A stretch of DNA of 32,000 nucleotides from positions 120,001 to 152,000 of the forward strand of contig JAUWGH010000008.1 of the NCBI GenBank assembly GCA_030606485.1, given 5' to 3'. How positions within the stretch are numbered: position 1 is the first letter of the stretch; every line of letters begins with the position of its first letter. The notes below the pieces were generated by a model. The model saw nothing but the letters and a program-made list of their open reading frames with translations. It made no database searches and was not told the DNA's origin. The translations under genes and the position numbers were made by a program. Source of the stretch: Promethearchaeota archaeon. Lineage in GTDB: Archaea; Asgardarchaeota; Lokiarchaeia; Sigyniarchaeales; SOKP01. Shown here piece after piece: positions 444-9,772 of the stretch.

Positions 444-1325
444 ATGAGTGAATATTCAAAAGATTATACGATTGGTGAGATGATAACTGTTTTAATGGCA
501 AGGGAAGTTAGAAATGATGATGTTATGATTGTTGGAGTTGCTACACCTTGTGTATGGGCAGCATTTACACTGGCAAAATTAACACATGCTCCAGATGCTA
601 TTTATCATTATATCATGGGAAATACTTTTGTTTTTGAACCTCGTCAAGTTTCATTACTTTATTTAGAGATGAATACAGCAAGAGCATATAGATTTCAAAA
701 TACAGGTGAATGTACTCTGGAAAGCTTACCTTCTGATAAACTTACTACAATAGAGTTCTTTAGACCTGCTCAAATTGACCAATATGGAAATACAAACAAT
801 GTTTGCATTGGTGATTGGAATAGACCAAAGATTAGACTTCCTGGATGCGCAGGCATAGCTGACTTTAGCATGTTTTATTCTCGTGGCTCTTTCCTCTACA
901 CACCAAGACATGATACGCGAACTTTCGTTCCAATAGAGAAACTTTACTTTATCTCGGGAGTTGGTTTCCCTAACGGAAAGCCAAGCATTTGTGGTGGTGC
1001 TGGACCCCAATGTGTAATAACTAATTTAGCGTATTTAAATTTTGATGGAAAGGTTAAGCGGATGAAAATCGCATCAATTCATCCTGGCATAGACATTGAG
1101 ACCATAAAAAATTCTACTGGTTTTGATTTAATCATTCCTGATAATTTGAAAGAAACGAAACCGCCTACTGTAAAAGAAATAAAACTTTTGAGAGAAAAAG
1201 TAGATCCATTAGGCATAAGGAAGTTAGAAATTTTCTCAGGTAAGGAACGAGAAGAATTGTTAGATGTGATTATAGAAAAAGAATTAGCAATGAAAAAAAG
1301 GTTTCCAAAATTACTTAATAATTAA
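444..1325 (+). CDS. Family I CoA-transferase beta-subunit-like protein (GctB/IpdB-like)
   Basis: Motifs 'EMITVLMAREV', 'THAPD', 'FFRPAQIDQYGNTN', 'RLPGCAGIAD', 'FISGVG', 'VITNLAYL', 'SIHPGI..IKNSTGFDL' are typical of glutaconate/3-oxoadipate CoA-transferase B subunits. Confidence 0.8.
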   Translation: MSEYSKDYTIGEMITVLMAREVRNDDVMIVGVATPCVWAAFTLAKLTHAPDAIYHYIMGNTFVFEPRQVSLLYLEMNTARAYRFQNTGECTLESLPSDKLTTIEFFRPAQIDQYGNTNNVCIGDWNRPKIRLPGCAGIADFSMFYSRGSFLYTPRHDTRTFVPIEKLYFISGVGFPNGKPSICGGAGPQCVITNLAYLNFDGKVKRMKIASIHPGIDIETIKNSTGFDLIIPDNLKETKPPTVKEIKLLREKVDPLGIRKLEIFSGKEREELLDVIIEKELAMKKRFPKLLNN

Positions 1326-3882: not shown

Positions 3883-4245
3883 TTATTTTTCCAATGGTTT
3901 TTTAAAGATATAAGTATCACTTTTTATTATAATTTTTCCAGGTTTGGATAATATATTAATACATTCGTTTAGATTTTTCTCGATAAGTTCTCGTGCGACT
4001 TTTGGATTTCTTGGATGGAGATCAATATATATAATTCTACTTTTTAACAGGATATCGTTTTTTAAACTTAAAAAATCTGAATCAAAAGTAATTATTATGG
4101 CATTCTCATTTAATGCTATTTCAGCAACTTCTCCATTGGTTATTCCAAGTTTGTTTAGATCTTTTAAAGTTTTTACGTCATATCCAATATTAAGAATTAT
4201 ATTTTTAATTGAATGAGGTACATTTTCATCAAGTAAGAATTTCAA
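3883..4245 (-). CDS. DUF5615 PIN-like protein (putative toxin, VapC45-like)
   Basis: 'MKFLLDENVP' N-terminus and 'AIIITFDSDF' PIN acidic motifs; directly downstream of a DUF433 gene. Confidence 0.85.
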   Translation of the reverse strand: MKFLLDENVPHSIKNIILNIGYDVKTLKDLNKLGITNGEVAEIALNENAIIITFDSDFLSLKNDILLKSRIIYIDLHPRNPKVARELIEKNLNECINILSKPGKIIIKSDTYIFKKPLEK

Positions 4246-4248
4246 GTC

Positions 4249-4494
4249 TTAATGAACCTCTTCTCTAAATTTCTCTTTTAGATCAATTTGAGAAAGGTAT
4301 TTTTGAGCATCTTGGCCTAGTTTAATTATTTTAAGAAGAATTTTTCGATTTAAAGTAGGATATTCTTCTAATATTTCTTCTATTGAATAATTGAGTCCAA
4401 TTAATTCGAAAATTAAATCAACTGGAATTCGAGTTCCTTTTATTACAAGTTTTCCTCCAAGAATTTGAGGATTGTATTCAATAATATCTGACAT
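4249..4494 (-). CDS. DUF433 protein (putative antitoxin, VapB45-like)
   Basis: 'PQILGGKLVIKGTRIPV.LI.ELI..NYSIEEILEEYPTL' is the DUF433 signature; 3-bp gap to the PIN gene. Confidence 0.9.
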   Translation of the reverse strand: MSDIIEYNPQILGGKLVIKGTRIPVDLIFELIGLNYSIEEILEEYPTLNRKILLKIIKLGQDAQKYLSQIDLKEKFREEVH

Positions 4495-4571: not shown

Positions 4572-4656
4572 AATATATCCAGAATTGTGAATAATAGAAT
4601 AAAAGAAGAATAAAGAATTTTTTAATCCGATTTTTTCATTTCAAATTTAACATTAC
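4572..4656. repeat. Direct repeat copy B: last codons of meaB plus downstream region
   Basis: 73/85 identical to 2029..2113; contains the meaB stop (4622..4624) and a minus-strand pyrimidine-rich tract. Confidence 0.9.
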
Positions 4657-5599
4657 TAAATAAATCGTGAACCATATCGTAGATTTTAAATTTCTTACCT
4701 TGTAAAACAGAATTAGAAATTTTATTTAGATCATCTTCACTTATTAGACTTTCTAGAACCTTTCCTATTTTAGATGATAGTAATTCTTCTATTTTATATG
4801 CAAATCTATGTTTTTTCTTTTCTTTCAGCAATTCAGATAGCTCAAGGTGTTCTTTATGATCCATTATCTTTTCTATTAAAGAATTAACTCCTTCTCCGGT
4901 AATAGAATTTGTCATTATAACTGGTGCCCTCCAGCCACTCTGGGTAATAGTTGCATCGTCAAGCATCATTTCCATTTGCACAACAATATCTTCCCCCCCT
5001 AAATCCTTTTTATTTACAACATAAACATCTCCAACTTCAATTATTCCGGCTTTTTGTATCTGTATCGAATCTCCATACCCAGGAACCATTATTACAACTG
5101 TAGTATAAGCTAAATTATAAATATCAAATTCGGATTGACCTACACCTACAGTTTCAATTATGATAAAATCCATTCCAAAAGCTTCATACAATAAAGTTAT
5201 ATCAAAAACAGCTCGTGAAATACCACCTTTATAACCTCTTGATGCAAGGCTCCGTATAAATATATTTGGATGTAAAGAAATATCTGTCATCCTTACTCTA
5301 TCTCCTAGAAAAGCTCCTCCAGTAAAAGGTGAGGTTGGATCTACAGAAATAATTCCGATTGACTTTCCATTTTCTAATAAAATCTTTGAAAAAGCATTAA
5401 CTAAAGTGCTTTTTCCTACGCCTGGAGACCCAGTTATCCCAATAATATAAGAATCGTTTTCTGAACTATCAAAATTATTAAATATGTTAGTAGTGGTTTC
5501 AGGATTATTTTCAACAAGAGTTATAAGCCTTGCTAAGGCAATTTTATCCTTTTTTTTAAATTTCTCAATTAAAAGATCAATGTCATAATTTCGTTTCAA
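4622..5599 (-). CDS. meaB: MeaB/ArgK GTPase, chaperone of adenosylcobalamin-dependent mutases
   Basis: 'ARLITLVEN', P-loop 'GITGSPGVGKST', 'VDPTSPFTGGAFLGDRVRM', 'ETVGVGQSE', 'NKKD'; located in the mutase operon. Confidence 0.95.
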   Translation of the reverse strand: MKRNYDIDLLIEKFKKKDKIALARLITLVENNPETTTNIFNNFDSSENDSYIIGITGSPGVGKSTLVNAFSKILLENGKSIGIISVDPTSPFTGGAFLGDRVRMTDISLHPNIFIRSLASRGYKGGISRAVFDITLLYEAFGMDFIIIETVGVGQSEFDIYNLAYTTVVIMVPGYGDSIQIQKAGIIEVGDVYVVNKKDLGGEDIVVQMEMMLDDATITQSGWRAPVIMTNSITGEGVNSLIEKIMDHKEHLELSELLKEKKKHRFAYKIEELLSSKIGKVLESLISEDDLNKISNSVLQGKKFKIYDMVHDLFSNVKFEMKKSD

Positions 5600-5674: not shown

Positions 5675-6105
5675 TTATTTTTTAGTATTTTCTACAATAA
5701 AATTAACAACATCTGCAACGACAGTTCCAGGACCATAGACATTTGCTACACCCATTTTTTTTAATGTGGGAAAATCCATCACCGGAATTACACCACCAAC
5801 AAGTATTAAAAAGTGATCTTTTACGCCTTTTTCTTTTAGGAGATTTATGACTCTTTCAGTATATACTAAGTGAGCCCCTGAATGCATACTTAAACCAATA
5901 ACATCAACATCTTCGCTAATTGCAGACTCAACGATCTGTTCGACATTTTGAAACCCTCCAAATATAACTTCCATACCAGCGTCTCTTAAGCCTCTTGAAA
6001 CAACTACGCCACCTCGCCAATGCCCGTGAGCATTTTATCCTAAGAACTTTAGAATAAATCTATGCCGGGCTTGGACATTAAAACTCTTATTTTTCTCTCA
6101 CTCAT
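5675..6105 (-). CDS. Cobalamin-binding small subunit of acyl-CoA mutase, split by a 32-nt intron (exon 1 6105..6060, exon 2 6027..5675; 132 aa spliced)
   Basis: ATG 6105 has a GAGGTG SD and reads MSERKIRVLMSKPGI-D. The downstream frame reads GHWRGGVVVSRGLRDAGMEVIFGG...VIGLSMHSGAH...VGGVIP. Joined: ...KPGIDGHWRG..., the DxHxxG motif. The ORF track (5675..5974) misses the N-terminus. The unspliced exon-1 frame stops at TAA 6051..6049. Confidence 0.9.
6028..6059 (-). other. Candidate bulge-helix-bulge (tRNA-type) intron in mRNA, 32 nt
   Basis: mRNA folds as GCCCG/CGGGC exon helix, GCAU/AUGC 4-bp central helix, 3-nt bulges AGA and UCA on opposite strands, and a 10-bp intron stem UUUAUUCUAA/UUAGGAUAAA with loop AGUUC. 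Cleavage after bulge nt 2 on each strand gives AUA-G^AC-GGG-CAU (Ile-Asp-Gly-His). Confidence 0.88.
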
Positions 6106-6111
6106 ACTTTA

Positions 6112-6117
6112 CACCTC
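6112..6117 (-). promoter_or_regulatory. Shine-Dalgarno (GAGGTG) of the intron-containing small subunit gene
   Basis: GAGGTG lies 6 nt upstream of ATG 6105, just after the large-subunit stop at 6123. Confidence 0.8.
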
Positions 6118-6122
6118 ATTCT

Positions 6123-7796
6123 TTAAATAGCAATTGGGGGCTCCCAGATTCCCCAAACTTCGCGATAAACATCGCATATTTCACCAACTGTTGCTCCTTC
6201 TTTTGTTATTTCCATCATAATGGGCATTACATTCTCTTCTTTTTCACATACTTTTCGTAATTTATCAAAAAGTGTTTCTAATTTTTTGTTATCTCTTCGC
6301 TTTCGCAAATTAATAATCCTTTCTTGTTCAATTTTTACTGCTTCTTTATTAGTTCTAAATACAGTTGTTGTTTGATCATAAGGAACTGGAAATTTATTGA
6401 CTCCAAGCACGATTTCTTCTCCTTTTTCAATACGATTTTGCCTACGCATAAAAGCATCTCTCATTTCCTTATATAACCAGCCTGTATCTAATGCTCTAGC
6501 AATATTTCCAACCTTTTCGATTTTATCTATATAAGACAACACTTTTTCTTCGAGCTCATCAGTTAGCCACTCAATAAAATAAGAACCCGCTAATGGATCA
6601 ATAGTATTTGGAACTCTTGTTTCATCTTGTATTACTTGTTGTGTTCTTAAAGCAAGTAAGACAGCTTCTTCAGAAGGCAAGCAAATTGCTTCATCATAAG
6701 AATTTGTGTGGAGTGATTGTACTCCGCCTAATGCTGCTTCTAAAGCTTGAATTGTTGTTCTTATTATATTTACATTAGGAGATTGAGCAGTTAAGGAGCT
6801 TCCAGCAGTTTGAACATGAAACCTAAATTCCATAGATCTTGGATTTTTTGCTTCGTATCTATCTTTTATTAATTTACTCCAAATCCTTCTTGCTGCCCTA
6901 TATTTAGCTATTTCTTCAAAGAAATCCTTATGAGCTGAGAGATGAAATGCAAGACGACTAACAAAATCATCAACTTTCCAACCTCTGTCAATTAAATTAT
7001 CAATATGAGAACATGCACTTGCAAATACAAATCCTAATTCTTGAATTGCATCAATTCCACCTTCCCTATAATTATATCCCGTAAAATTGATAGGATGCCA
7101 CCTTGGGACATTTTTTTGTGGTACACACCACTCAATTAAATCACAAGCTAATCGAAGAATATGATAAGGATTTACATTTTTATAAGGAACATATCCAACC
7201 GTCATTGTTAAGATATCATTTTGTGTTGTTCCCATCAATGCTTTAATATCAAGTCCACGCATTTTCGCCATATTATAATACATCGCACATACAGGTGCTG
7301 AAGTAAAAGGCTCAACTATTAATGCAACACTAACTTTATCTATTGGTAATCCTTCTGTAAGGGCAAACATACTGTCAATACAATATAATGGGACTCCTGA
7401 TGTTCCAACTTCAGCATCTCCGTCAGGATTAGTTGGATCTATACCATTAAATGTTAAAGCATCAACAGCTGCACTAAATCCAGTTTCTCCATGAGAATAT
7501 AAAAACTTCCATCTTTTATTAGTCTCTTCAGGTGTCCCATGCCCTGAAAACAGTCTCATAGTCCATAATTGTCCCCTATACATGTTTGGATATACTCCTC
7601 TGGTATAAGGAGTGTTCCCAGGAAAACCCACATCCTCTAAATAATTGCTCTTTACGTCTAATGGAGTGTATAAATTTTTTATTGGAATTCCTGAATCCGT
7701 AATAAATTTTATTTCGCGTTCTTTTGTATTTTCAAATTTTTTATCCCATTCTTGCTTCTTTTCTTTAATTTTTTCAAGGTAATTCTCATCAAACAT
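6123..7796 (-). CDS. Adenosylcobalamin-dependent acyl-CoA mutase, large (substrate-binding) subunit, methylmalonyl-CoA mutase family; substrate uncertain
   Basis: 'GFPG..PYTRGVYP.MYRG.LWTMR', 'QNDIL', 'RLAFHL..H.DFFEEIAKYRAARRIW', 'FHVQTAGSSLTAQ', 'GGVQSLHTNSYDEA..LPSE', 'DPLAGSYFIE', 'GVNKF', 'ATVGEI'. Confidence 0.95.
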   Translation of the reverse strand: MFDENYLEKIKEKKQEWDKKFENTKEREIKFITDSGIPIKNLYTPLDVKSNYLEDVGFPGNTPYTRGVYPNMYRGQLWTMRLFSGHGTPEETNKRWKFLYSHGETGFSAAVDALTFNGIDPTNPDGDAEVGTSGVPLYCIDSMFALTEGLPIDKVSVALIVEPFTSAPVCAMYYNMAKMRGLDIKALMGTTQNDILTMTVGYVPYKNVNPYHILRLACDLIEWCVPQKNVPRWHPINFTGYNYREGGIDAIQELGFVFASACSHIDNLIDRGWKVDDFVSRLAFHLSAHKDFFEEIAKYRAARRIWSKLIKDRYEAKNPRSMEFRFHVQTAGSSLTAQSPNVNIIRTTIQALEAALGGVQSLHTNSYDEAICLPSEEAVLLALRTQQVIQDETRVPNTIDPLAGSYFIEWLTDELEEKVLSYIDKIEKVGNIARALDTGWLYKEMRDAFMRRQNRIEKGEEIVLGVNKFPVPYDQTTTVFRTNKEAVKIEQERIINLRKRRDNKKLETLFDKLRKVCEKEENVMPIMMEITKEGATVGEICDVYREVWGIWEPPIAI

Positions 7797-8022: not shown

Positions 8023-8664
8023 TTAACTAACCAATTCTAAGGCTTTTTTTGCAGCTTCTGGTGCAGTGCGAGCCCAACCATCTGCTCCATACAACTTAGC
8101 GACTTCTTCAGTCACTGGACCTCCTCCAACCATGATTTTTATATCTAGGTTCTGTTTATGGACATCTTCGATTACTTTTTTCATTTTTACCATTGTAGAG
8201 GTCATTAATGCGGACATGGCAAGGATATCTGCATTAGTTTTTTTTACCTCCTCAATAAACCGTCCTAATTTTACATCATACCCCAAATCATGAACTACAA
8301 ACCCTTGTGCTATCAACAAATACTTGACAAATTCTTTGCCCAAATCATGAATATCTCCTTCCATTACGCCTAGAACAACAACTCCCTTCTTTTTTTCTGC
8401 TTTTTCTTTGATTAATTGAGGTTTTAAAATGTTTAACCCCTCATTGAATGCATCTGCACTAGCCATTAATTCAGGTGCAAAGATTTCTTTTTCATAGAGA
8501 TCTCCTAATTCTATAAACCCTCTAGCTAGACCTTCATTTAACACTATTTGCGCATCTATTCCTTCTTTTAAAGCGTCTTTAGTGATTTCTATAACAGCTT
8601 CAATATCATAATTTTTTACGCTCTCTCTGAGCTTTTTTAAAATTTCTTCTTTTTTATTTTCCAT
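8023..8664 (-). CDS. Methyltransferase cognate corrinoid protein (MtaC/MtbC/MttC-like)
   Basis: N-terminal four-helix cap plus 'GVMEGDIHDLGK' (DxHxxG), 'SALMTSTM', 'MVGGGPV...YGADGW'; AGGAGG SD upstream. Confidence 0.92.
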   Translation of the reverse strand: MENKKEEILKKLRESVKNYDIEAVIEITKDALKEGIDAQIVLNEGLARGFIELGDLYEKEIFAPELMASADAFNEGLNILKPQLIKEKAEKKKGVVVLGVMEGDIHDLGKEFVKYLLIAQGFVVHDLGYDVKLGRFIEEVKKTNADILAMSALMTSTMVKMKKVIEDVHKQNLDIKIMVGGGPVTEEVAKLYGADGWARTAPEAAKKALELVS

Positions 8665-8680
8665 TTTAAATCCCTCCTAA

Positions 8681-9772
8681 TTATTCATATTTTCCGTAGA
8701 TCTCAGCTGCCTTAACCATGGCTATAGCATTGTACAATGAAGCATACGGAGGATATTCACATGCTGAACCAAGGATATACCCTCGCTTCCAATTTCTAAA
8801 AACTTCAATCTCTCTTTTGCATTCTGCTATCACTTCACTAGGTGTTCCAAGAGCAAGAAGTGATGTATCCACATAGCCTATAAAAATAACTTTTTCACTA
8901 TATTTTTCTATCATCTCTTCCTCGGTTTCACAGTCATATGGCAAATAAGCAAAGTTCATGCCGATTGGTTTTAACCATTTGATCAAAAGATCGAAGTATG
9001 CTCCACGTCCGCAATTATGGGTTAAAAACATGGCTCCTTTCTTTTTCGCAGCATCAACTATCCTCTTTTGATAAGGGGCATCTAGCTCTTCCCACATTTC
9101 CCTACTCATAATATCTTTTTGAGCACAAACAGTTGGTATCATAAGCATTGAAGGACCTCCACCTGCTGCTTCAATTTGCTTTTCTACATATTCAACTAAT
9201 ATATCTGTGATAAAATCCAAAGCTTCATGAAGTTCTTCTTTATGCCAAATCCAATCCCGAATTAGGTCTTGTGGCCTTCGAAGTCGAACTAGAACGCCCA
9301 TTGGACCAATAGTTATAGCCCCTCCCATGCCCACGATGTCACTTAATTTCTTAATTCCGTGTATCACATCATTCATCCTTTTTGCTTTCTCCCAACTAAA
9401 TTTTTTTACAATCTTATAATCTTTTGGATCTTTAATAAGCCACTTGGTAGGATCAGGGTAGGGTGTATCATCTTCAGGAAAAATAGTAGCTCCACCAAAA
9501 TCAGTTGATTCTACACAGAGGTCAGGCCCTAAAGATGAAGGAAGCGCATCATGGCCAACTATCTTCATAGCCTCTAGATGACATTTTATTGCCACATCTG
9601 AATTTTGAGCATATTCTCGATAGGAAATACCAAGAAGATGACGAGAAGCAGCACCAATTAACGGAATTGCTGGTACTCTGTCGATCTTTCGTTTCATGAA
9701 AAGCCCTAGCAATCTTTCAGTAATTTCCGCAATTTTCTCTTTTATAAATTTATTTTCATTTTCGGATTTCAT
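8681..9772 (-). CDS. Uroporphyrinogen decarboxylase-fold methylcobamide:thiol methyltransferase (MtaA/MtbA/CmuA family)
   Basis: 'DRVPAIP', 'DLCVESTDFG', Zn-ligand motif 'THNCG' and C-terminal 'GSACEYP'; adjacent to the corrinoid protein. Confidence 0.8.
   Translation of the reverse strand: MKSENENKFIKEKIAEITERLLGLFMKRKIDRVPAIPLIGAASRHLLGISYREYAQNSDVAIKCHLEAMKIVGHDALPSSLGPDLCVESTDFGGATIFPEDDTPYPDPTKWLIKDPKDYKIVKKFSWEKAKRMNDVIHGIKKLSDIVGMGGAITIGPMGVLVRLRRPQDLIRDWIWHKEELHEALDFITDILVEYVEKQIEAAGGGPSMLMIPTVCAQKDIMSREMWEELDAPYQKRIVDAAKKKGAMFLTHNCGRGAYFDLLIKWLKPIGMNFAYLPYDCETEEEMIEKYSEKVIFIGYVDTSLLALGTPSEVIAECKREIEVFRNWKRGYILGSACEYPPYASLYNAIAMVKAAEIYGKYE

What the first reader, a model, noticed from the sequence alone, without database searches (positions are those of the whole stretch)
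5675..6105. Intron sits in the Asp codon of the DxHxxG cobalamin-binding motif: possible splicing-controlled switch and marker of a wider class of hidden mRNA introns
Seen: the splice junction falls inside the Asp codon two residues before the His of DxHxxG. The flanking exon codons (Pro-Gly-Ile / Gly-His) themselves form the BHB helices, and the large subunit and meaB on either side are intact. Established: this His ligates cobalt in base-off/His-on mutases, so no unspliced or internally started product (e.g. the 99-aa ORF from 5974) could bind B12 properly. Inference: mutase activity would depend on EndA/RtcB, giving post-transcriptional control of one subunit within a polycistronic mRNA. 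Until religation, cleavage would also separate the large-subunit cistron from the meaB cistron. Insertion at a highly conserved motif resembles the behaviour of archaeal tRNA/rRNA introns. Other apparently frameshifted genes in this lineage may hide similar introns.
Basis: inference. Interest (0 to 1): 0.72.

Follow-up and report, generated by a model that had tools for sequence, protein, structure and literature searches.

The report
Spliced mini-intron in Asgard mutase gene
A 32-base insert shaped like an archaeal tRNA intron splits the vitamin-B12-binding motif of a mutase gene in a Lokiarchaeon, so the mRNA very probably has to be cut and rejoined by the tRNA-splicing enzymes; it looks like a laterally spreading passenger, one of several in this genome, not a B12 switch.

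Summary
On the minus strand a 32-nt insert (6059-6028) splits the Asp codon (G|AC) of DxHxxG in the B12-binding small subunit of an acyl-CoA mutase. Its lowest-energy fold is a textbook hBHBh' motif, and cutting at the canonical bulge positions restores a 132-aa PF02310 protein. The genome (Promethearchaeia, formerly Lokiarchaeia) has two EndA paralogues and RtcB.

The 'wider class' idea is supported. I verified four more frame-breaking BHB mini-introns in this genome (MoxR, dnaG, GH38, uppS). The dnaG intron shows compensatory exon/intron changes across relatives.

The 'B12 switch' idea is not supported. Only 3 of 113 orthologue-bearing class genomes carry the intron, in two genera. Close congeners have exact intron-less alleles, and no riboswitch was found.

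New here:
- The intron sits in a ~145-nt tract that is 34% diverged from congeners, against 3.5% around it.
- All carriers share seven rare flanking codons that build the helices.
- Intron plus flanks differ 8% between genera, against 30% elsewhere.
This points to spread by recombination.

No RNA data exist, so splicing is inferred. This scan has noted similar mRNA introns in other Asgard genomes. Published coding-region cases are limited to cbf5.

The parts
6060..6105 (-). Exon 1 of the mutase small (B12-binding) subunit: ATG to the first base (G) of the Asp16 codon
   Evidence: an RBS-like GAGGTG lies upstream of the ATG
6028..6059 (-). 32-nt BHB mini-intron. It has an in-frame UAA and its length is not a multiple of 3
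   Evidence: It is the top-scoring frame-restoring BHB in my genome scan. It is single-copy in the genome
5675..6027 (-). Exon 2: AC of the Asp16 codon, then GHWRGG... to the stop codon
   Evidence: The spliced product matches PF02310 (residues 7-119, 71 bits) and TIGR00640 (137 bits)
6017..6074 (-). The whole hBHBh' motif, in minus-strand order: outer helix 5' strand 6074-6066, H 6065-6062, bulge AGA 6061-6059, inner stem and loop 6058-6034, H 6033-6030, bulge UCA 6029-6027, outer helix 3' strand 6026-6017
   Evidence: lowest-energy fold; 99.1% of pair cells keep a standard pair in 5 distinct carrier sequences
6025..6170 (-). Recombination tract tied to intron presence: the 3' end of the large-subunit gene, the spacer, exon 1, the intron and the first whole exon-2 codon
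   Evidence: Against the intron-less congener G003 there are 39/116 mismatches inside the tract and 44/1252 outside it
6123..7796 (-). Acyl-CoA mutase large subunit (557 aa), intact, ending 17 nt upstream of the small-subunit ATG
4622..5599 (-). MeaB G-protein chaperone (325 aa), 75 nt downstream of the small subunit
5675..5974 (-). Internal 99-aa ORF of the unspliced message; it lacks DxHxxG

Best explanation
The insert is a true archaeal bulge-helix-bulge (BHB) intron inside a protein-coding mRNA.

How it most likely works:
1. The pre-mRNA folds into an hBHBh' motif. Its outer and central helices are made partly of exon codons 11-18.
2. The heteromeric (alpha-beta)2-type splicing endonuclease EndA cuts between nucleotides 2 and 3 of each 3-nt bulge.
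3. RtcB joins the exons and probably circularises the 32-nt intron.
4. This recreates the GAC Asp codon and a 132-aa B12-binding subunit with an intact DxHxxG.
5. Unspliced RNA yields only an 18-aa peptide, or a 99-aa fragment without the cobalt-ligating His loop.

What it is in evolutionary terms: the intron is most likely a tolerated, constitutively spliced passenger, not a regulatory device. It is rare and patchy. It changes presence or absence through DNA recombination that carries along flanking exon sequence. It belongs to a set of similar mini-introns in conserved motifs within the first 47 codons of unrelated genes in this genome.

Shown here: the structure, the exact frame restoration, the presence of the enzymes, the distribution and the recombination tract.
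Inferred: cleavage, ligation, constitutive splicing and the direction of transfer.
For: Structure and frame:
- Searches show the textbook BHB. Canonical cuts restore the invariant Asp found in 77 of 77 intron-less homologues.
- It ranks first among 18,446 ORF-compatible loose BHB candidates in the genome.

Machinery:
- The genome has two EndA paralogues and one RtcB.
- Asgard archaea are reported to have (alpha-beta)2 EndA with the L1 loop (PMC5829648).

The gene is kept alive:
- The six carriers analysed give an intact 132-aa ORF after removal, with pN/pS about 0.23. A seventh carrier contig holds the same intron.

Variation among carriers fits a BHB:
- The first two bulge bases vary freely: UC, UU, AU, CC.
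- The loop varies.
- Two helix changes are G-C to G-U.
- There is one inner-stem mismatch.

Flanking exon codons:
- Carriers use seven consecutive rare codons (TCC AAG CCC GGC ATA GAC GGG). The product of their relative synonymous frequencies is 9e-7.
- Intron-less alleles use the common codons (5e-3).
- The rare codons supply the G and C bases of the helices.

Same lineage, other genes:
- BHB introns in MoxR, dnaG, GH38 and uppS restore GEPG|TGKT, GAIFGQ|TEGLL, HWDRE|WY and DGN|RRW.
- In the dnaG intron the central helix changes from GGGC/GCCU to GGAC/GUCU to GGUC/GGCU across relatives. An exon wobble base and an intron base co-vary.

Passenger, not switch:
- 3 of 113 orthologue-bearing genomes carry it, in two genera (1 of 54 genomes searched in one genus).
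- The tract is 34% diverged, against 3.5% for its flanks.
- Intron plus flanks differ 8% between genera, against 30% elsewhere, while the gene-wide synonymous distance is 0.65.
Against: - Nothing at the RNA level was available, so splicing itself is not shown.
- There is no compensatory double change within this particular intron, because there is too little variation.
- The ABR05-type carrier has a U-U mismatch that loosens the inner stem next to the 5' bulge.
- The direction of the recombination event cannot be polarised (gain in G000/G001, or loss in G002/G003). Both tract alleles are about 78% identical to other genera.
- The tract borders were chosen after looking at the alignment.
- Shared flanks could come from selection for pairing and not from co-transfer.
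- Constitutive as opposed to regulated splicing is untested.
Confidence: 0.75

Rival explanations
1. Splicing-controlled switch. The intron makes production of the B12-binding subunit depend on regulated EndA/RtcB activity or on BHB folding. That would give post-transcriptional control of one subunit and uncouple the cistrons.
For: - The intron sits in the one motif without which the subunit cannot ligate cobalt.
- The BHB is built from codons 11-18, only about 30 nt downstream of the start codon. A translating ribosome would therefore melt it, so competition between splicing and translation is conceivable (inference).
- The operon context includes MeaB.
Against: - It is not conserved: 3 of 113 orthologue-bearing genomes carry it.
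- Congeners with the same operon lack it.
- No ligand-sensing RNA was found.
- Equivalent introns sit in unrelated genes: dnaG, uppS, GH38, MoxR.
- No alternative structure or regulatory protein has been identified.
Confidence: 0.12
2. Inactivating insertion. The small-subunit gene is a young pseudogene and the intact second mutase (contig C1) supplies the needed activity.
For: - An intact paralogous mutase is present: a 556-aa large subunit and a 133-aa small subunit.
- The paralogue scores higher against the MCM models: 783 against 555 bits for TIGR00641.
- Public gene calls for carriers are truncated 110-aa proteins.
Against: - The insert is a perfect BHB whose canonical cuts restore the frame exactly.
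- No second lesion appears in any of the six carriers analysed, including one whose gene-wide synonymous distance is 0.65; pN/pS is about 0.23.
- The large subunit and MeaB next to it are intact.
- The paralogue is only 42-48% identical, and most relatives keep both systems. The two are not redundant copies.
Confidence: 0.08
3. Translational recoding. The ribosome frameshifts or hops over the insert without any RNA processing.
For: A stable hairpin follows the break, as in known bypass sites.
Against: - The upstream frame closes at 6051-6049 and the downstream frame opens only after the stop at 6037-6035. No single shift can link them.
- There is no matching take-off and landing codon that would give Asp-Gly-His.
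- Any read-through product would lack the Asp of DxHxxG.
Confidence: 0.02
4. Sequencing or assembly artefact.
For: None beyond the fact that the source is a metagenome-assembled genome.
Against: The same insert is found in three genome assemblies (G000, G001/ABR01, G084/ABR05), three metagenome contigs, a Logan contig, and a contig of an independent study that spans 6006-6490 without a gap.
Confidence: 0.01

Closest known systems
BHB intron in the cbf5 pre-mRNA of Crenarchaeota (Watanabe 2002; Yoshinari 2006; Yokobori 2009, PMC2738675)
   Same: - It is a short BHB intron inside a coding region.
- Removal by the tRNA-splicing endonuclease is needed for a full-length protein.
- It is linked to hetero-oligomeric EndA.
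- It has lineage-specific presence and absence.
   Different: - The gene, the phylum (Asgard) and the position (a cofactor-ligating motif) all differ.
- Here the intron is very sparse, in two genera, and lies in a recombination tract with shared exon flanks. That suggests lateral spread. The cbf5 intron was inferred to be ancestral with secondary losses.
- Splicing of cbf5 was shown experimentally; here it is inferred.
- This genome has several such genes, not one.
BHB intron in the 5' UTR of HVO_1309 mRNA, Haloferax volcanii (PMC7714728)
   Same: An mRNA is a substrate of the archaeal splicing endonuclease, and removal matters for expression.
   Different: That one lies in the untranslated leader and does not interrupt a codon or a reading frame. 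It was confirmed in vitro and in vivo.
Non-canonical tRNA introns of Asgard and TACK archaea (PMC5829648; bioRxiv 10.64898/2026.10.13.758758)
   Same: - The motif, the size range (25-50 nt) and the enzymes are the same.
- The genome is intron-rich: aragorn calls an intron in 24 of 38 tRNA genes.
- Gains are repeated and recent, and the route of arrival is unknown.
   Different: - The host is an mRNA, so the cut sites must also preserve a reading frame, and translation competes with folding.
- Here a route of spread can be seen: a recombination tract.
Unconventional HAC1/XBP1 mRNA splicing in eukaryotes (Ire1 cleavage, RtcB or Trl1 ligation; own knowledge; RtcB role mentioned in PMC8718801)
   Same: It is spliceosome-independent. 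Cleavage at paired stem-loop sites and tRNA-ligase joining change the reading frame of an mRNA.
   Different: - The endonuclease is Ire1, not EndA/TSEN.
- That system is a proven stress-regulated switch. No regulation is evident here.
Inteins and homing introns in conserved motifs of essential genes (own knowledge)
   Same: - Preference for highly conserved sites.
- Sporadic distribution.
- Co-conversion of flanks.
   Different: A 32-nt element cannot encode a homing endonuclease, and none is adjacent. The element is single-copy in the genome.

Membership tests
Archaeal BHB (hBHBh') intron, substrate of EndA | Two 3-nt bulges on opposite strands, separated by a 4-bp helix | tested here: met
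   bulges AGA and UCA, helix GCAU/AUGC, in the lowest-energy fold and the centroid
Archaeal BHB (hBHBh') intron, substrate of EndA | Flanking helices h (exon-exon) and h' (inside the intron) | tested here: met
   h is 5 bp plus 4 bp, h' is 10 bp; 99.1% of pair cells keep a standard pair across carriers
Archaeal BHB (hBHBh') intron, substrate of EndA | Cutting between bulge nucleotides 2 and 3 yields a functional mature RNA | tested here: met
   a 132-aa ORF with DGHWRG. PF02310 and TIGR00640; it matches the uninterrupted homologues
Archaeal BHB (hBHBh') intron, substrate of EndA | Splicing endonuclease and RtcB ligase are encoded in the genome | tested here: met
   two PF01974 loci (104 and 68 bits) and one PF01139 locus (580 bits)
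Archaeal BHB (hBHBh') intron, substrate of EndA | Spliced RNA or a circular intron is observed | not testable with these tools
   No RNA sequencing run could be examined for this locus
Archaeal BHB (hBHBh') intron, substrate of EndA | Base pairs are kept by compensatory change | tested here: inconclusive
   for this intron, two G-C to G-U changes, one mismatch and no double change. For the dnaG intron of the same genomes a double change (G-C to A-U) is seen
B12-binding domain, base-off/His-on type (PF02310; mutase small subunit) | Domain match plus the DxHxxG loop and the GG motif | tested here: met
   D16-x-H18-x-x-G21 and VGG after splicing. The usual SxL reads S-M-H in this subfamily, and the loop reads GHWRG where canonical MCM has GHDRG
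Canonical methylmalonyl-CoA mutase (equivalog) | Score above the equivalog cut-off, and the substrate-site motifs | tested here: not met
   NF006944 scores 440 bits against a cut-off of 876; only the subfamily-domain model passes; 42% identity to the canonical-looking paralogue, with a diverged QNDIL and HIRE region. I therefore call it an acyl-CoA mutase of unknown substrate
Regulatory RNA switch (riboswitch-like control of splicing) | Conserved among orthologues, with a ligand-sensing element | tested here: not met
   3 of 113 genomes; no Rfam family in the window
Mobile (homing-like) intron | Sporadic distribution that disagrees with host phylogeny, and co-converted flanks | tested here: met
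Mobile (homing-like) intron | An encoded or adjacent homing endonuclease, or multiple genomic copies | tested here: not met
   32 nt cannot encode a protein. It is single-copy in the genome. 23 of 26 metagenome pattern hits are unrelated sequence

The most novel reading that the evidence does not exclude
BHB mini-introns of Lokiarchaeia are laterally mobile. They move between species and genera by gene conversion that drags along a few to about 150 nt of exon flank. They settle in conserved motifs near the 5' end of protein genes. In this reading the closest archaeal relatives of eukaryotes carry a dynamic population of mRNA introns removed by the tRNA-splicing machinery. This locus would be a clear example of how such introns arrive, a question the current literature leaves open.
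Probability: 0.45. Interest if true: 0.85.

Novelty: new member of a known kind. Interest (0 to 1): 0.66.

Why it matters
In the papers searched here, one coding-region mRNA intron of this type is reported (cbf5, Crenarchaeota), plus one intron in a 5' UTR. This work shows a metabolic enzyme gene of an Asgard archaeon that can be read only after tRNA-type splicing, together with at least four other such genes in the same genome.

Three consequences follow:
- Gene callers miss these genes. Public entries for carriers are 110-aa truncated proteins without the cobalt ligand. Metabolic reconstructions of Asgard archaea can therefore wrongly score genes as broken.
- The tRNA-splicing enzymes of the archaeal relatives of eukaryotes apparently work routinely on mRNAs. 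That bears on the origin of unconventional mRNA splicing.
- The recombination tract and shared exon flanks give a testable route by which such introns spread.

Tried and rejected
- RNA evidence: no RNA holder is listed for the locus. Only DNA contigs could be laid.
- Protein database: no full-length protein identical to the spliced product was found, so there is no hint of a cDNA-derived record.
- Genome-wide census by ORF logic alone. Loose BHB descriptors give about 220,000-460,000 hits. Requiring open frames on both sides, with decoy cut offsets of -2, -1, +1 and +2 as control, gave no excess over the decoys. Same-strand gene junctions and chance open frames swamp a handful of true introns. 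One run timed out. A scan for junction-spanning Walker A motifs was just as uninformative apart from MoxR. A homology-aware census is needed.
- Covariation test on this intron: too little variation.
- Intron copies elsewhere: none in the genome. 23 of 26 metagenome pattern hits are unrelated sequence.
- ychF intron noted by another reader: I could not locate it. PF06071 has no match in the genome and a P-loop regular-expression search failed.
- MoxR: PF07726 did not hit the intron-bearing copy. That case rests on the Walker A junction and the fold.
- uppS in relatives: the alignments stop before the intron.
- Polarising the recombination tract: both alleles are about equally distant from other genera.
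- Second insert site (G016): its fold is no better than shuffled sequence.

Full report
**1. What is there**

All genes in 4.6-7.8 kb of the window lie on the minus strand:
- an acyl-CoA mutase large subunit (7796-6123, 557 aa, PF01642)
- a small B12-binding subunit, starting 17 nt further on (ATG at 6105)
- MeaB (5599-4622), 75 nt after the small subunit's stop codon

The small subunit is broken. From ATG 6105 the frame reads 18 residues (MSERKIRVLMSKPGIDLF) and stops. The rest (GHWRGGVVVS... to the stop at 5675) is in another frame. Removing 6059-6028 (32 nt) joins G|AC into an Asp codon. This gives a 132-aa protein with D16-G-H18-W-R-G21. The protein matches PF02310 over residues 7-119 and TIGR00640 at 137 bits.

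**2. Is it a BHB intron, and is it more than chance?**

The lowest-energy fold and the centroid of 6010-6085 form a textbook hBHBh' motif:
- exon-exon helix GCCCG/CGGGC, extended by CCAA/UUGG
- 4-bp helix GCAU/AUGC
- 3-nt bulges AGA and UCA on opposite strands
- a 10-bp intron stem with a 5-nt loop

The energy is -23.4 kcal/mol, z = -3.07, and none of 200 shuffles folds as well. The rule for EndA substrates is a cut between bulge nucleotides 2 and 3 (established knowledge; compare PMC5829648). That rule gives exactly the junction that restores the frame and the invariant Asp. All 77 intron-less homologues I read, archaeal and bacterial, have KPG[ILVT]DGH uninterrupted at this point. In my own genome-wide descriptor scan this site has the best helix score among 18,446 ORF-compatible candidates.

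The insert is real DNA. It occurs in three genome assemblies, three metagenome contigs and one Logan contig. A contig from an independent study spans 6006-6490 without a gap.

**3. Organism and machinery**

Relatives are labelled Promethearchaeota/Promethearchaeia, the group formerly called Lokiarchaeia. The genome is 3.75 Mb with 29% G+C. It encodes two EndA paralogues and one RtcB. This fits the (alpha-beta)2 endonuclease with the L1 loop reported for Asgard archaea (PMC5829648). aragorn calls an intron in 24 of 38 tRNA genes.

**4. Evidence that the gene is kept alive through splicing**

- The six carriers analysed give an intact 132-aa ORF after removal, with pN/pS about 0.23. This holds even between carriers whose synonymous distance is 0.65. 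A seventh carrier contig holds the same intron.
- Differences among carriers fall where a BHB tolerates them. The first two bulge bases vary (UC, UU, AU, CC). The loop varies. Two helix changes are G-C to G-U, and one of them is a synonymous GAC-to-GAU change. One inner-stem pair is lost in the ABR05 type.
- There is no double compensatory change, so the formal covariation test says nothing either way.
- The stronger signal is in the exon. Carriers use seven consecutive rare codons (TCC AAG CCC GGC ATA GAC GGG). Their relative synonymous frequencies are 0.08-0.33 and the product is 9e-7. Intron-less alleles use the common ones (TCA AAA CCA GGT ATT GAT GGT; product 5e-3). The rare third-position G and C bases are the ones that form the helices.

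**5. Distribution**

Of 161 species-representative genomes of the class, 113 have the orthologue. Only three have this intron: the window's genome, its congener G001 (isolate ABR01), and G084 (isolate ABR05). G084 belongs to another genus, where it is 1 of 54 genomes searched. Congeners G002, G003 and G004 read ...CCAGGTATTGATGGTCATTGG..., the exact intron-less allele. An intron-less relative also occurs in the same samples (loose ends at 6058).

**6. Recombination tract**

- Against G002 and G003 the window's genome is 96.5% identical over 1252 aligned bases. It is only 66% identical (39-40 mismatches in 116) over about 6170-6025. That stretch covers the last ~45 nt of the large-subunit gene, the spacer, exon 1 and the first whole exon-2 codon.
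- The two carriers of the genus differ by 4.7% in that stretch.
- Downstream of the tract, G001 shares its differences with the intron-less G002 and G003, not with the window's genome. The intron's distribution therefore disagrees with the phylogeny of its flanks.
- Between genera (window against ABR05), the intron plus 28 flanking bases differ at 8% of positions, against 30% elsewhere. In ABR05 the rest of the region looks native, and only about 16 nt upstream and 3 nt downstream carry the carrier codons.

I read this as spread, or loss, by homologous recombination with conversion tracts of variable length.

Caveats: the borders were chosen after inspection. The direction cannot be polarised. 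Selection for pairing could explain part of the shared flank.

**7. The wider class**

I checked for myself four other cases in this genome that were noted by other first-stage readers:
- MoxR-type ATPase: 31 nt, GEPG|TGKT
- dnaG: 32 nt, GAIFGQ|TEGLL
- a GH38 glycosidase: 30 nt, HWDRE|WY
- a uppS paralogue: 30 nt, DGN|RRW, central helix 3 of 4 pairs

Each has the 4-bp helix, two 3-nt bulges and an inner stem, and canonical cuts restore the motif. For GH38 and uppS the Pfam match begins right after the insert, at model positions 14 and 5.

Among relatives:
- The dnaG intron is present in all five genomes examined (four congeners and one genome of another genus). Its central helix changes from GGGC/GCCU to GGAC/GUCU to GGUC/GGCU. 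A Gly wobble base in the exon and an intron base co-vary.
- The GH38 intron is absent from two congeners. It is present in another genus with a different interior and the same carrier flank, CGT where non-carriers have AGG.
- The MoxR intron is absent from four congeners.

All five introns lie within 47 codons of the first in-frame start codon and in strongly conserved motifs. Detection bias toward well-known motifs cannot be excluded.

My attempt at an unbiased census by ORF logic failed, with no excess over decoy cut positions.

**8. The regulatory idea**

Nothing supports a B12- or substrate-responsive switch:
- The intron is rare.
- Near-identical operons work without it.
- Rfam finds no family in the window.
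- The same kind of element sits in unrelated genes.

One logical point remains. The BHB is made of codons 11-18, so translation and folding must compete. That could make splicing efficiency sensitive to how fast translation starts. This is speculation.

**9. The paralogue**

Contig C1 holds a second complete mutase: a 556-aa large subunit and a 133-aa small subunit, with no meaB. It is 42% (large subunit) and 48% (small subunit) identical to the window's pair. It scores higher on the MCM models, and most relatives keep both systems. The window's enzyme belongs to a GHWRG subfamily, shared with other Asgard archaea, Ca. Syntrophoarchaeum and some bacteria. It fails the MCM equivalog cut-off. 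I therefore call it an acyl-CoA mutase of unknown substrate. The paralogue does not make this copy dispensable in any obvious way.

**10. Rivals**

- Pseudogene: contradicted by the perfect BHB, the exact frame restoration, the absence of second lesions and purifying selection.
- Recoding: the upstream frame closes at 6051-6049 and the downstream frame opens only after 6037-6035. No single frameshift can link them, and no hop would yield Asp-Gly-His.
- Artefact: excluded by the independent assemblies.

**11. Comparison with the literature**

The held papers report BHB introns in mRNA only for cbf5 of Crenarchaeota (coding region; PMC2738675) and for the HVO_1309 leader in Haloferax (PMC7714728). 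Searches for Asgard mRNA introns returned none. A 2026 preprint shows repeated gains of Asgard tRNA introns and states that the route of arrival is open (10.64898/2026.10.13.758758).

This scan has noted comparable mRNA introns in other Asgard genomes. Those notes are leads, not support.

I file this as a new member of the cbf5-type kind. It adds evidence for recombinational spread.

Noticed in passing
L032 (G016) about 1465-1500; L175 (G096:C85) about 470-540, minus strand: In two other genera the same small-subunit gene carries a different insert 15 nt further downstream, right after GHWRGG. It is 29 nt (frame-breaking) in G016 and 30 nt (in frame, with a stop) in G096. The two inserts share their 5' end (AAATTTTTGAG) and their site. 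They can be drawn as a relaxed BHB (GGGG with CUCU or CGCC, bulges AAA and AAU, hairpin), but the fold is no better than shuffled sequence.
   Followed up: partly
G000 C2:142590-142621 (+), with L152-L156: The dnaG BHB intron is conserved in the five relatives examined across two genera. A compensatory change links an exon Gly wobble base to an intron base (GGGC/GCCU, GGAC/GUCU, GGUC/GGCU).
   Followed up: partly
G000 C7:23173-23202 (+); C1:76174-76204 (+); C1:489530-489559 (-): BHB mini-introns interrupt GH38 (HWDRE|WY), a MoxR-type ATPase (Walker A) and a uppS paralogue (DGN|RRW). The GH38 and MoxR introns are missing from congeners. GH38 and uppS have intron-less paralogues in the genome.
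   Followed up: partly
G000 C2 near 142530 and C1 near 489570: In dnaG and uppS the open frame runs further upstream than any ATG. The only in-frame start codons upstream of the intron are GTG (14 codons before it, dnaG) and TTG (5 codons before it, uppS). The true starts, or further upstream introns, are unresolved.
   Followed up: no
proteins P0002 and P0006 (public databases); L177: Public gene calls for intron carriers are 110-aa proteins that start at VVSRGLRD and so lack DxHxxG. The intron is hidden from annotation.
   Followed up: yes
window 8023-9772 (-): A corrinoid protein (B12-binding_2 plus B12-binding domains, 213 aa) and a URO-D-family protein (363 aa), which looks like a methyltransferase pair, lie just upstream of the mutase genes. 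This is a second B12-dependent system in the neighbourhood.
   Followed up: no
window 3883-4494 (-): A DUF433 (81 aa) and DUF5615/PIN-like (120 aa) gene pair, with the layout of a toxin-antitoxin module, lies directly downstream of meaB.
   Followed up: no
window 6123-7796 (-) and spliced small subunit: This mutase belongs to a distinct subfamily. The small subunit reads GHWRG where canonical MCM has GHDRG, and S-M-H where the usual motif is SxL. The large subunit is diverged around QNDIL and HIRE. The subfamily is shared with Asgard archaea, Ca. Syntrophoarchaeum butanivorans and some Thermodesulfobacteriota. Its substrate is unknown.
   Followed up: partly
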